A stretch of DNA of 8,522 bases from a virus. Its lineage: Duplodnaviria > Heunggongvirae > Uroviricota > Caudoviricetes. This document shows positions 1 through 3,280 of the stretch, one piece after another. The stretch lies in the IMG/VR virus record IMGVR_UViG_2541047751_000016, positions 1 through 8,522 of that record; one strand, 5' to 3'. The notes under the pieces were generated by a model. It ran no database searches, was not told where the DNA came from, and worked only from the letters and a program-made list of their open reading frames with translations. The position numbers and the translations under genes were made by a program. Each line of letters opens with the position of its first letter. Positions within the stretch are counted from its first letter, which is position 1.

Positions 1-693
1 GAATGGCACGCTCTGGAAAAACGAGCACTGGCAGAAGGCTGGACACCATCGCGCTATCTTCTGACGCTATGCAATGAAGAACTCCTGTGGCGCGAGAGTG
101 AAAAACTGCGTCGTTATAAAAAGGAGGCCCGGTTGCCAGTTGCCAAAACGCTAAGCGAATACGACTTCAGTCAGGTGCCGGAACTGAATGGAGCTCAGTT
201 CCGGCAACTCTGTGAAACGACAGACTGGGTTGATGCAGGAGAAAACGTTCTGCTGTTCGGAGCCAGCGGGTTGGGGAAAAGCCATCTGGCGGCAGCGATC
301 GTGGATGGCGTAGTAGGCCAGGGCTACCGGGCCCGGTTCTACAGCGCAGGAGAGTTGTTGCAGGAACTACGTAAAGCCAGAGCGCAGTTGAAACTGAATG
401 AGCTGCTACTGAAACTGGATCGCTACCGGGTGATAGTGGTGGATGATCTTGGCTATGTCAAACGCGACAGCGCCGAAACGGGAGTACTGTTCGAGTTAAT
501 AGCGCATCGCTATGAACGTGGGAGCCTGGTGATAACCAGTAACCATCCGTTCAGCATGTGGGGCAGCATCTTCGTGGATGAGACTATGGCGGTGGCGGCG
601 GCAGACCGGCTGATCCATCACGGATATATGTTCGAACTGAAAGGTGAAAGCTACAGGAAAAAGACAGCGAAGGCAGTAACAAGCGCGACTTGA
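1..693 (+). CDS. istB: IstB-like AAA+ ATP-binding transposition helper of IS21 family (5'-truncated by window edge)
   Basis: Frame 1 is open from base 1 (EWHALEKRALAEGW...). Translation shows LPVAKTLSEYDF, Walker A GASGLGKSHLAAA, Walker B-like VIVVDDLGY, ITSNHPF and C-terminal DRLIHHGYMFELKGESYRKK, matching the IstB/DnaC-like family from memory. Confidence 0.9.
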   Translation, partial: EWHALEKRALAEGWTPSRYLLTLCNEELLWRESEKLRRYKKEARLPVAKTLSEYDFSQVPELNGAQFRQLCETTDWVDAGENVLLFGASGLGKSHLAAAIVDGVVGQGYRARFYSAGELLQELRKARAQLKLNELLLKLDRYRVIVVDDLGYVKRDSAETGVLFELIAHRYERGSLVITSNHPFSMWGSIFVDETMAVAAADRLIHHGYMFELKGESYRKKTAKAVTSAT

Positions 694-1561: not shown

Positions 1562-1591
1562 TGCTCTTCCATCCCCGTCTAATTGGCGGGG
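1562..1591 (+). promoter_or_regulatory. Candidate nut-like site B: boxA-like TGCTCTTCC followed by a 7-bp-stem pentaloop hairpin
   Basis: TGCTCTTCC at 1562-1570; hairpin CCCCGTC (1573-1579) / GGCGGGG (1585-1591) with one G-U wobble and loop TAATT (1580-1584). Sits 56 nt upstream of the N-like start codon. Confidence 0.3.
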
Positions 1592-1646
1592 AAGGAAACC
1601 ACTTTGTAATAAAAAAAATTCCAAAGTTGTTTCATCGGAGGTCAAC

Positions 1647-2041: not shown

Positions 2042-2225
2042 TAAGAATCAATGGTGTGGACAATTCAAGCGATGCAATGGATGCAAGCTGCAATCGGAAT
2101 GCATGGTTAAGCCTGAAGAAATGTTTCCTGTAATGGAGGATGGGAAATATGTCGATAAATGGGCAATACGAACTACGGCAATGATTGCCAGAGAACTTGG
2201 TAAACTGAACAACAAGGCTGCCTGA
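2025..2225 (+). CDS. ral: Ral restriction-alleviation protein (anti-restriction against type I R-M)
   Basis: 66-aa product MTTTIDKNQWCGQFKRCNGCKLQSECMVKPEEMFPVMEDGKYVDKWAIRTTAMIARELGKLNNKAA is near-identical to lambda Ral as I remember it. Confidence 0.85.
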   Translation: MTTTIDKNQWCGQFKRCNGCKLQSECMVKPEEMFPVMEDGKYVDKWAIRTTAMIARELGKLNNKAA

Positions 2226-2244
2226 TGGTGGCCTTTATTTTCTT
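2214..2244 (+). terminator. Intrinsic-terminator-like hairpin after ral
   Basis: AAGGCTGCC (2214-2222) / GGTGGCCTT (2227-2235) stem with two wobble pairs, loop TGAT, then TATTTTCTTATTT. Shares GGCCTTTATTTT with the hairpin at 2874-2900. Confidence 0.5.
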
Positions 2245-2261
2245 ATTTGAGAGGAATTAAT

Positions 2262-2885
2262 ATGTCATCAATCCGCTTAACTACGAGAATGAAAGAGGAA
2301 ATCGCTCGTAACGCTTTAATTAAGTCTGGGGTTTTCACTGAACTTGAAGAAGTAACAAAGTTAAAGAACCAGCTTGCACTTGACGCCAGAGTTATTGCGT
2401 TTGGCGGTAAAAAGAAAACTGAGGAAGTGGATCAGTTATCATCCAAGTTGGTAGCTATAAGTGAAGAACTTGAAAAGATGGGATGTTCATTTTACTCATA
2501 CGATGTTCGTTCTACTTCAATTTATCTGACTGTATCTGGCAGAAGGGTTGGATGGCATTCATATGGGAAAGACGGCAACGGCGAAGATATATTGCTCCCT
2601 ACTCCGACCAAAGATAAATGCATGTTTGACGCAGAACACGAAATAACAGAAAGGTTTGATGAAATCTGCGCATTACAACAAAAACTTGAAGCAAAGAAAA
2701 AGGATATCGAATCAAATGTATGGGCTGCTTTAAACTCAGTCACAACAGTTAAGCGACTCATTGAAGTTTGGCCTGAAAGCAAAGAATTGCTACCAAAAGA
2801 AGCAGATAAAGCAAGTACAGCACTTCCTGCTTTACGGGTAGAAGATTTGAATAAGATGATTGGACTTCCTTCCGAGGCCGCATAG
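2262..2885 (+). CDS. Hypothetical protein (207 aa), no family recognised
   Basis: GAGAGGA at 2249-2255, ATG at 2262, long open frame. Product MSSIRLTTRMKEEIARNALIKSG...GWHSYGKDGNGEDILLPTPTKDKCMFDAEHE... Occupies the position of lambda ea10 between ral and cIII. Looks more AT-rich than its neighbours by eye. Confidence 0.75.
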   Translation: MSSIRLTTRMKEEIARNALIKSGVFTELEEVTKLKNQLALDARVIAFGGKKKTEEVDQLSSKLVAISEELEKMGCSFYSYDVRSTSIYLTVSGRRVGWHSYGKDGNGEDILLPTPTKDKCMFDAEHEITERFDEICALQQKLEAKKKDIESNVWAALNSVTTVKRLIEVWPESKELLPKEADKASTALPALRVEDLNKMIGLPSEAA

Positions 2886-2900
2886 TCGGCCTTTATTTTT
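2874..2900 (+). terminator. Intrinsic terminator after the 207-aa gene
   Basis: Stem AGGCCG (2875-2880) / CGGCCT (2887-2892), loop CATAGT containing the stop codon, then TTATTTTT. Confidence 0.65.
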
Positions 2901-2927
2901 GGCACTAACAACAGAATAAACACTGCA

Positions 2928-2959
2928 CTGTGTATTCATTCCAACGAGTGAATACACGG
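2928..2959. repeat. Near-perfect inverted repeat (9-bp arms, 10-nt spacer)
   Basis: GTGTATTCA (2930-2938) and TGAATACAC (2949-2957), extendable to 2928-2959 with a wobble. No U-tract follows, so not a typical terminator. Confidence 0.6.
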
Positions 2960-3019
2960 AGCAATGTCGCTCGTAACTAAACAGGAGCCGACTTGTTCTG
3001 ATTATTGGAAATCTTCTTT

Positions 3020-3046
3020 GCCCTCCAGTGTGAGGGCCTTTTTATA
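3020..3046 (+). terminator. Intrinsic terminator upstream of the cIII-like gene
   Basis: Stem GCCCTC (3020-3025) / GAGGGC (3032-3037), loop CAGTGT, then CTTTTTATAT. Confidence 0.65.
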
Positions 3047-3109
3047 TGCATACCAATAACGCTTCACTCGAGGCGTTTTCGTTATGCAATCAAACAGAAG
3101 GAGCATCCT

Positions 3110-3280
3110 ATGCAACAGTTCGCTATTGCAGGGGCGGCATCGGTTCGCCCTTTCAACCCGATTTTATCGGTACAGCATTCACGAAAAAATATTTTAACCG
3201 GAGCAGACTTTAAACAACCAAGAATGAAAAGTTTGCTCGAAAAGCTTTGGGATATTTTGAAACAACAAGGCCGTCCATGA
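3110..3280 (+). CDS. cIII: cIII-like protein (putative FtsH/HflB protease inhibitor)
   Basis: AAGGAG at 3098-3103, ATG at 3110, 56 aa. N-terminal MQQFAIAG and C-terminal LLEKLWDILKQQGRP resemble lambda CIII (MQYAIAG...WKRLIDILNQPGVP, from memory); position matches lambda gene order. Confidence 0.6.
   Translation: MQQFAIAGAASVRPFNPILSVQHSRKNILTGADFKQPRMKSLLEKLWDILKQQGRP

What the first reader, a model, noticed from the sequence alone, without database searches (positions are those of the whole stretch)
2901..3046. Structured non-coding segment between two terminators: 9-bp inverted repeat plus terminator upstream of cIII
The 225-bp gap between the 207-aa gene and the cIII-like gene has no supported ORF. 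It contains a near-perfect inverted repeat (GTGTATTCA-N10-TGAATACAC, 2930-2957) without a U-tract, followed by a strong terminator at 3020-3046. This is consistent with a short structured RNA ending at that terminator, or with a protein-binding dyad controlling read-through into cIII.
Basis: seen in the sequence. Interest (0 to 1): 0.55.

Follow-up and report, generated by a model that had tools for sequence, protein, structure and literature searches.

The report
Lambda PreS small RNA gene copy
The flagged gap holds a prophage copy of PreS, a small regulatory RNA of phage lambda that is already described, and the inverted repeat is a conserved RNA hairpin sitting directly against the 5' end of that RNA.

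Summary
A perfect 9-bp inverted repeat lies at 2930-2938/2949-2957, and an intrinsic terminator has its stem at 3020-3037 and a U-run at 3039-3043.

The segment is not anonymous. It is the homologue of the lambda ral-ea10 intergenic region, which encodes the Hfq-dependent sRNA PreS (LPR1). That RNA ends at terminator tL2a (Silverman et al., bioRxiv 10.1101/2024.10.31.621285; Mol Cell 2025).

PreS here spans 2959 to about 3043. Its first 79 nt, including the seed, are identical to lambda.

The inverted repeat lies outside the mature RNA as mapped in lambda. It ends one base before PreS +1.

Every homologue examined carries a hairpin at this position (222 loci anchored on the 5' end, 184 on the seed). 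The stems fall into at least five unrelated sequence versions. Nine of 15 pairs show compensatory changes, 94.7% of cells are paired, and wobble pairs are tolerated only on the + strand.

The repeat is therefore a selected RNA structure, not an operator and not a recombination scar. I infer, without experimental support, that it helps define the PreS 5' end on the pL transcript.

Overall this is a known element, with one apparently undescribed detail.

The parts
2874..2900 (+). Terminator-like hairpin plus T-run after the 207-aa Nmad5-family gene.
   Evidence: stem 2874-2893 with 7 pairs, tail TATTTTT. GGCCTTTATTTT (2888-2899) repeats the sequence after ral at 2230-2241.
2925..2962 (+). Hairpin H0 at the 5' boundary of PreS. 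The predicted helix runs C2928-G2959 through C2941-G2946 with loop 2942-2945. A lower stem pairs G2925/C2926 with G2961/C2962 across an A-A mismatch.
   Evidence: -18.8 kcal/mol, z -6.4; covariation over 5 stem versions, 94.7% paired, 9 of 15 pairs with changes on both sides.
2959..3043 (+). PreS (LPR1) sRNA homologue, about 85 nt. Nucleotides 1-79 are identical to lambda PreS.
   Evidence: +1 is fixed by primers P810, P1103, P1107 and P969 and by the alaS pairing numbering 42-56.
2959..2972 (+). PreS stem-loop 1 (GAGC-AAUGUC-GCUC). Together with the following GUAAC it forms the 19 nt that were required by the search pattern and so are shared by all collected family members. By size arithmetic, these nucleotides are absent from the dominant ~68-nt species.
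   Evidence: 4 invariant pairs. The sizes of 88 and 68 nt are. Which nucleotides are removed is my inference from those sizes.
2993..3014 (+). PreS seed region (lambda PreS nt 35-56). It contains the bases changed in the dnaN-pairing mutant M1 (2998-3000) and the alaS-pairing stretch (3000-3014).
   Evidence: Primers P838, P839, P888, P889, P970 and P971 and the alaS duplex. The sequence is identical in the window.
3020..3043 (+). Intrinsic terminator equivalent to lambda tL2a. This is the PreS 3' end and the expected Hfq-binding U-tail. It has 5 U after a C here, against GA plus 6 U in lambda.
   Evidence: tL2a is stated as the LPR1 3' end.
3058..3077 (+). Context only: a hairpin plus T-run in the cIII leader. 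It is homologous to the lambda sequence just upstream of cIII. In this prophage ea10 is absent, so the PreS terminator joins this leader directly.
   Evidence: This arrangement is found in 53 of 222 collected loci, against 57 with ea10 next.

Best explanation
The segment is the prophage's copy of the lambda PreS (LPR1) gene. PreS is an Hfq-dependent, trans-acting small RNA encoded in the early-left (pL) operon.

What is shown for lambda:
- An ~88-nt RNA and a more abundant ~68-nt processed form end at the intrinsic terminator tL2a.
- They appear only in the lytic cycle and bind Hfq.
- They base-pair through a single-stranded seed with host mRNAs. dnaN translation goes up and alaS goes down, which supports phage DNA replication.

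In this window the RNA runs from G2959 to the U-run at 3039-3043. Its first 79 nt are identical to lambda, so the same targets are expected.

The 9-bp inverted repeat is the core of a separate RNA hairpin, H0 (2925-2962). It is transcribed on the same strand and abuts PreS +1. Its lower stem pairs the conserved GCAC with PreS nt 1-4 (GAGC).

Inferred step (my probability about 0.45): PreS has no promoter of its own and is cut out of the pL transcript. H0, and probably the conserved stem-loop 1 behind it, would be the cis-acting structure that positions or limits the endonucleolytic cut creating the 5' end. The mapped 5' end lies on the 3' side of the helix, next to a 1x1 mismatch or wobble. 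That geometry resembles single-strand RNase III cuts in phage T7 early mRNA, but an RNase E guide or a folding insulator would fit as well. The cut would leave H0 as a 3' cap on the upstream message.
For: Identity as PreS:
- The gap is homologous to lambda 33905-34086, between ral and ea10.
- The preprint places LPR1/PreS there, ending at tL2a, as ~88 and ~68 nt RNAs that are Hfq-enriched and lytic-cycle only.
- The cloning, in vitro transcription and deletion primers fix +1 at GAGCAATG, which is window 2959. The alaS duplex numbering confirms it.
- 79 of 79 nt are identical to lambda, seed included.
- The terminator is confirmed.
- No conserved ORF and no promoter-like site in 2886-2960.

Hairpin H0:
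- It is present at the same register in all 222 loci anchored on the PreS 5' end and all 184 anchored on the seed.
- There are five unrelated stem versions plus one within-type compensatory variant (ATAGCAGA/TCTGCTAT to ATAGCTGA/TCAGCTAT).
- A MAFFT alignment made without any structure input puts gaps only in the loop.
- On that alignment 94.7% of cells pair and 9 of 15 pairs change on both sides. The covariation score is 0.629, against 0.154 in shuffles (0 of 500 reach it) and at most 0.122 for slid partners.
- 36 wobble cells, 35 of them with U on the 5' arm, against 1 C-A cell. The + strand fold is -18.8 kcal/mol and the - strand fold is -13.1.
- The hairpin-plus-sRNA unit stays constant while 31 upstream and 21 downstream sequence clusters vary.
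Against: - Expression, Hfq binding and the 5' end were not measured for this prophage. All of that is carried over from lambda.
- The U-tail is one U shorter than in lambda.
- The processing role of H0 is inference only. The preprint says nothing about the hairpin or about how the 5' end arises, and I could not read the Mol Cell version, which may address it.
- The lower stem is only 3 pairs plus a mismatch, and its bases never vary, so it is untested by covariation.
- The total helix of about 16-18 bp is short for a classical RNase III site.
- The sequence at +1 does not resemble the RNase E preference (R-N-cut-W-U-U, from my own knowledge).
- The ~88-nt size is a gel estimate, so the true 5' end could be a few bases off.
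Confidence: 0.85

Rival explanations
1. H0 is mainly a 3'-end stabiliser or folding insulator for the upstream messages (ral, the Nmad5 gene and others). It would block 3' exonucleases or prevent mispairing, and would have no role in making PreS.
For: The hairpin begins 4-6 nt after the stop codon of the upstream ORF in many loci (GAATAA-GCAC-hairpin). After any cut at +1 it would sit at the 3' end of the upstream fragment. Only 2 of 31 upstream sequence clusters are seen with more than one hairpin type.
Against: The distance to PreS +1 is fixed, with no indels outside the loop, and the lower stem uses PreS nt 1-4. The hairpin accompanies PreS behind 31 different upstream clusters, so its constant partner is PreS and not any one gene. 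This reading overlaps with the main one rather than excluding it.
Confidence: 0.2
2. The dyad is a DNA operator for a phage or host regulator that controls read-through into cIII.
For: It is a perfect 9-bp palindrome with a 10-bp spacer, upstream of cIII.
Against: The half-sites are replaced by unrelated sequences in homologues while complementarity is kept. The 36 wobble cells would be mismatches in a symmetric DNA site and on the other strand. There is a single copy in the window. The same hairpin type occurs with different N proteins (lambda N, and the N of this window, which I take to be phage-21-like), and it is separated from cIII by ea10 or other genes in lambda, P22 and mEp043.
Confidence: 0.03
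3. The repeat is a neutral recombination scar or 'boundary sequence' of lambdoid mosaicism, with no function of its own.
For: Many BLAST matches begin at window 2925 or 2959. GenBank EF120458 (HK542 immunity region) annotates 'boundary sequence 4' starting at the position equal to window 2925. Hairpin types shuffle against PreS subtypes.
Against: A neutral scar would not keep pairing through complete stem replacement and single compensatory changes, and would not be present in every homologue examined. Acting as a recombination boundary and being a functional RNA structure are compatible.
Confidence: 0.07
4. The hairpin belongs to a longer primary sRNA of about 120 nt with its own promoter, and the 88-nt RNA is its product.
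For: A 5' hairpin would protect such an RNA. Longer bands are not excluded by the text I could read.
Against: There is no sigma-70-like site between 2886 and 2960. Sequence upstream of GAATAAGCAC is unrelated among loci, so no conserved promoter is possible there. LPR1 appears only when pL is derepressed. ~88 nt is reported as the top band.
Confidence: 0.05

Closest known systems
PreS / LPR1 sRNA of phage lambda, with terminator tL2a (Silverman et al., bioRxiv 2024; Mol Cell 2025, 85:4678)
   Same: Same locus type (pL operon, downstream of ral, same strand). 79 of 79 nt are identical, including the seed and the terminator stem. It ends in a GC-rich stem plus U-tail. The same hairpin lies upstream.
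   Different: The tail is C plus 5 U here, against GA plus 6 U in lambda. The neighbours differ: an Nmad5-family gene is inserted between ral and the hairpin, and ea10 is missing, so the terminator abuts the cIII leader. Nothing was measured in this prophage.
PreS-like RNAs of P22-like and other lambdoid phages (unannotated; for example P22 between orf87 and gene 17)
   Same: They share the 5' 19 nt, a covarying stem-loop 2, the UUCUGRUU core, an intrinsic terminator and a hairpin abutting +1.
   Different: They are about 100-107 nt, with different 3' halves, terminators and hairpin stems (types B to E). I found no experimental evidence for them.
RNase III processing hairpins between phage T7 early genes (such as R1.1), and lambda sib
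   Same: A helix in a polycistronic phage transcript. The mapped end lies on the 3' side next to an internal mismatch, and the hairpin would remain on the upstream RNA. This rests on my own knowledge of T7 and sib.
   Different: The helix here is shorter, with a 3-pair lower stem. No cleavage data exist. The resemblance is a lead and not a test.
Hfq sRNAs released by processing from longer transcripts (CpxQ, SroC and similar)
   Same: The mature sRNA shares its terminator with a longer transcript, and its 5' end is probably made by cleavage.
   Different: Those are typically cut by RNase E at AU-rich single-stranded sites. A covarying hairpin abutting +1 is not a described feature of them, as far as I know.

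Membership tests
PreS/LPR1 sRNA (phage lambda) | Sequence homology to lambda lpr1 over the whole RNA | tested here: met
   79 of 79 nt are identical from +1 through the terminator stem. +1 is taken from the authors' primers.
PreS/LPR1 sRNA (phage lambda) | Location in the early-left operon downstream of ral, on the pL-transcribed strand | tested here: met
   The order N, ral, (Nmad5), PreS, cIII, RecT is all on the + strand.
PreS/LPR1 sRNA (phage lambda) | 3' end at a rho-independent terminator with a U-tail (Hfq-type 3' end; tL2a) | tested here: met
   6-bp GC-rich stem at 3020-3037 and 5 U at 3039-3043. The tail is one U shorter than in lambda.
PreS/LPR1 sRNA (phage lambda) | Seed that pairs with dnaN and alaS | tested here: met
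   Window 2993-3014 is identical to the sequence carried by mutagenesis primers P838, P839, P888 and P889 and to the alaS duplex. Target pairing itself was not recomputed.
PreS/LPR1 sRNA (phage lambda) | Expressed as ~88 and ~68 nt RNAs in the lytic cycle and bound by Hfq | not testable with these tools
   Shown for lambda only.
Intrinsic terminator | GC-rich hairpin directly followed by a U-run | tested here: not met
   This row concerns the inverted repeat at 2930-2957. It is followed by GGAGCAATG with no U-run. The feature is met separately by 3020-3043.
Operator / protein-binding dyad | Half-site sequence conserved among homologues | tested here: not met
   Five unrelated stem sequences with pairing preserved, and strand-asymmetric wobble pairs.
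RNase III processing site (T7 R1.1-like) | Double-stranded helix of about two turns, often with an internal loop at the scissile bond | tested here: inconclusive
   The predicted helix has 13-14 stacked positions, then a mismatch, then 3 pairs. A 1x1 mismatch or wobble sits at position -1. This is shorter than classical substrates.
RNase III processing site (T7 R1.1-like) | Cleavage dependent on RNase III | not testable with these tools
   I found no cleavage data. The literature search gave nothing on this site.
Any Rfam 15 family | Match at or near the gathering score | tested here: not met
   The best overlap is mir-137 at 20.3 bits against a gathering score of 56.7 (E = 2.3), which is a chance hairpin match. 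There were no matches in 5 homologous loci.

The most novel reading that the evidence does not exclude
H0, together with the shared 19 nt behind it (stem-loop 1 plus GUAAC), is a dedicated biogenesis module for a wider family of PreS-like sRNAs in lambdoid and P22-like phages. By size arithmetic, the 19 nt shared by every member collected are exactly the part missing from the dominant 68-nt species. H0 is kept only as a structure. Together they would direct two successive cuts that release the active sRNA from an antiterminated polycistronic transcript, whatever gene cassette lies upstream.
Probability: 0.4. Interest if true: 0.45.

Novelty: already known. Interest (0 to 1): 0.3.

Why it matters
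The main value is correct annotation. This gap is left unannotated in 41% of complete E. coli genomes (2250 of 5426 have a match) and has no Rfam family, yet it encodes a characterised phage sRNA that acts on the host replication clamp gene dnaN.

The added detail is a universally present, covarying hairpin that abuts the sRNA's 5' end, together with diverged P22-type relatives. This gives a concrete, mutable handle on an open point: how PreS is released from the pL transcript. It also provides the material for a covariance model of the family.

Tried and rejected
- Rfam scans of the window (permissive threshold) and of five homologous loci found no family.
- The promoter scan found no candidate in 2886-2960. 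By eye, no -10-like hexamer sits at the right distance from +1 in hairpin types A or B.
- The 31-aa ORF at 2964-3059 is rejected because its ATG is ATA in P22-type copies.
- The operator idea is rejected.
- svsR (PMC12803456) lies at the 3' end of cI. HnrS (PMC13502914) is described as a 66-nt multicopy sRNA on Sakai prophages Sp9, Sp10 and Sp12, and nothing I read places it at this locus. I treat both as different RNAs.
- A literature search for RNase III or other processing sites in the pL operon gave nothing usable. The 1980s mapping papers are not in the library.
- The Mol Cell version of the PreS paper is not held.
- The genome-contig scan added no new hairpin types. Most non-enterobacterial hits carry a PreS region identical to lambda, several on low-coverage contigs, and look like lambda DNA contamination. 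Three were chance 19-mer matches.
- The 8-nt complementarity between 2945-2952 and 3063-3070 is about what chance gives in 600 nt. The non-A hairpin stems differ over this stretch, so I dropped it.

Full report
**Context**

The window is the early-left (pL) operon of a lambdoid prophage, read on the + strand. The order is:
- an N gene (1647-1946), which I take to be phage-21-like from my own knowledge
- ral (2025-2225)
- a 207/212-aa gene that RefSeq calls 'Nmad5 family putative nucleotide modification protein' (to 2885)
- the 225-bp gap
- a cIII-like gene (3111-3280)
- RecT, further genes, and an excisionase-like gene at the end

**Observation**

The repeat GTGTATTCA/TGAATACAC is perfect and sits at 2930-2938/2949-2957. 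None of 200 shuffles of the window contains such a repeat.

As + strand RNA, 2925-2960 forms a 14-bp stem with a CAAC loop (-18.8 kcal/mol, z = -6.4). It is the 4th most stable distinct 36-nt local fold in the window on either strand.

The terminator at 3020-3037 plus U-run, and the one after the 207-aa gene (stem 2874-2893), are both found by the scan.

**Identity**

BLAST shows that the segment is widespread. It matches 373-414 phage records and 2250 of 5426 complete E. coli genomes.

In lambda the same sequence fills the gap between ral and ea10 (J02459 33905-34086). A literature search for tL2, ral and terminator led to Silverman et al. (bioRxiv 10.1101/2024.10.31.621285; published in Mol Cell 2025). 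They report the following:
- RIL-seq found an Hfq-bound sRNA, LPR1, renamed PreS, 'between ea10 and ral'.
- Its 3' end is the tL2a terminator.
- It appears as a ~88-nt band and a stronger ~68-nt processed band.
- It is expressed only in the lytic cycle.
- It pairs through a seed with host dnaN (activated) and alaS (repressed).
- Deletion of the gene or the seed lowers phage yield 2-4 fold in an Hfq-dependent way.

Their oligonucleotide table fixes the RNA's first base. The cloning and T7 primers start at GAGCAATGTCGCTCG. The arm of the full-deletion primer ends at ...GTGTATTCATTCCAACGAGTGAATACACG, so the deletion starts just after the repeat. The published alaS duplex numbering (nt 42-56 = GAUUAUUGGAAAUCU) agrees with this +1.

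Mapped onto the window, PreS +1 is G2959. The window is identical to lambda for the first 79 nt, through the terminator stem. It differs only in the tail: C plus 5 U here, against GA plus 6 U in lambda. From +1 to the end of the U-run is 87 nt in lambda, matching the ~88-nt band, and 85 nt here.

The flagged segment is therefore a copy of a known sRNA gene. It is not in Rfam 15 and is not annotated in RefSeq.

**The inverted repeat**

The repeat lies outside the mature RNA and ends one base before +1. The preprint does not mention it or discuss how the 5' end arises.

I collected PreS-family loci by exact-pattern scans, anchored on the 5' 19 nt and separately on the seed. After removing four chance matches, all 222 5'-anchored loci and all 184 seed-anchored loci have a hairpin in the same place. 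The stems are not the same:

| Type | 5' arm / 3' arm | Example |
|---|---|---|
| A | GTGTATTCA / TGAATACAC | lambda, this window |
| B | ATAGCAGA / TCTGCTAT | P22, mEp043 |
| B2 | ATAGCTGA / TCAGCTAT | single compensatory swap of type B |
| C | AATGCGGA / TCCGCATT | |
| D | AATGACCA / TGGTCATT | |
| E | TATCGACT / AGTCGATA | |

All types are framed by the conserved GCAC and G(N)GAGC.

A plain MAFFT alignment of 20 distinct versions puts gaps only in the loop. Results on that alignment:
- 94.7% of cells pair.
- 9 of 15 pairs change on both sides.
- The covariation score is 0.629, against 0.154 in shuffles (0 of 500 reach it) and at most 0.122 when partners are slid.

Of 260 upper-helix cells, 208 are Watson-Crick, 36 are wobble (35 with U on the 5' arm) and one is C-A. 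The structure is therefore selected as + strand RNA and not as a DNA dyad. The - strand fold is weaker at -13.1 kcal/mol.

In every type the predicted fold also pairs GCAC with PreS nt 1-4 across an A-A mismatch. This puts the mapped 5' end on the 3' side of the helix base, next to a wobble (type A) or a 1x1 mismatch (types B to E). These lower pairs never vary, so covariation says nothing about them.

**Family**

The collected loci show that PreS belongs to a broader family:
- the lambda type (85-88 nt)
- two P22-like types and a third type (about 100-107 nt)

All share the 5' 19 nt (part of the search pattern, so shared by construction), a stem-loop 2 with compensatory changes, the UUCUGRUU core and an intrinsic terminator of varying sequence.

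Hairpin types combine with several sRNA subtypes. Type A occurs with all four, and type B with three. The unit sits between 31 different upstream and 21 different downstream sequence clusters. GenBank EF120458 annotates 'boundary sequence 4' beginning at the position equal to window 2925. So the start of this conserved block had already been noticed as a mosaic boundary.

**Mechanism**

Shown for lambda and carried over by sequence identity: PreS is an Hfq-dependent trans-acting sRNA that raises dnaN translation and supports phage replication.

Inferred from sequence:
- There is no promoter-like site in 2886-2960.
- Sequence upstream of the conserved block is unrelated among loci.
- In this window a terminator lies just upstream.
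- Expression follows pL derepression.

PreS is therefore most likely cut out of the N-antiterminated pL transcript. H0 has a fixed register against +1, and the module is present in every homologue examined. These points argue that H0 is coupled to formation or protection of that 5' end.

By size arithmetic (87 - 68 = 19), the dominant 68-nt form lacks nt 1 to about 19. Those are exactly the 19 nt shared by all collected members. This suggests that H0 and stem-loop 1 form a processing module and are not part of the effector.

I cannot say which nuclease acts. The geometry recalls single-strand RNase III cuts in T7 early RNA (own knowledge), but the helix is short and the lower stem is weak. The sequence at +1 does not fit the usual RNase E preference (own knowledge).

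I give the processing-determinant reading about 0.45. A 3'-stabiliser or insulator role for the upstream mRNA gets about 0.2, and it overlaps with the first. A neutral boundary scar gets about 0.07, a longer primary transcript about 0.05 and an operator about 0.03.

**Verdict**

The 'short RNA ending at the terminator' reading is right, but the RNA is already known. The 'protein-binding dyad' reading is not supported. The one apparently new point is the covarying 5'-boundary hairpin and the wider PreS-like family. Both are modest in interest and need simple RNA-end mapping and stem mutagenesis.

Noticed in passing
window 1562-1598: This looks like the nutL site upstream of N. A boxA-like TGCTCTT is followed by a strong hairpin (CCCCG...CGGGG; -21.0 kcal/mol). 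That is the third most stable local fold in the window.
   Followed up: partly
window 133-693, and hairpin 172-207: A 186-aa ORF with a P-loop (GASGLGKSHL) looks like an IS21-family IstB helper. This identification is from my own knowledge and was not tested. It lies where the immunity region and pL would be expected upstream of N, so the prophage's early-left operon may be cut off from its promoter. The most stable hairpin of the window lies inside it.
   Followed up: no
window 2230-2241 and 2888-2899: The Nmad5-family gene cassette is bracketed by the same 12-nt GGCCTTTATTTT, the 3' half of a terminator hairpin plus T-run. Lambda has one copy and no cassette. This looks like a moron-type insertion at the ral terminator.
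   Followed up: partly
L004 (P22, NC_002371) 1201-1303, and L127, L197, L217: Diverged PreS-like RNAs of about 100-107 nt sit between orf87 and gene 17 of P22 and in other lambdoid contigs. They have their own terminators, are unannotated and have no Rfam family.
   Followed up: partly
L228, L230, L232, L236, L238-L242, L244, L250 (genome contigs): The PreS region is identical or nearly identical to lambda on contigs of Shewanella, Pseudomonas, Neobacillus, Kitasatospora and other non-enteric assemblies. Several of these contigs have about 1x coverage, and three are about 48.4-48.5 kb, close to the lambda genome length. This is most likely lambda DNA contamination. It is a caution for any taxonomic-range claim about PreS.
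   Followed up: partly
window 2214-3077, + strand: Four terminator-like hairpins lie within 900 nt of one operon (after ral, after Nmad5, PreS/tL2a, cIII leader), against 1.9 expected. This is consistent with an operon that depends on N antitermination.
   Followed up: no
window 2945-2952 and 3063-3070: There is a perfect 8-nt complementarity between the 3' side of H0 and the loop of the cIII-leader hairpin. It is about what chance gives in 600 nt, and the stems of the other hairpin types differ over this stretch.
   Followed up: partly
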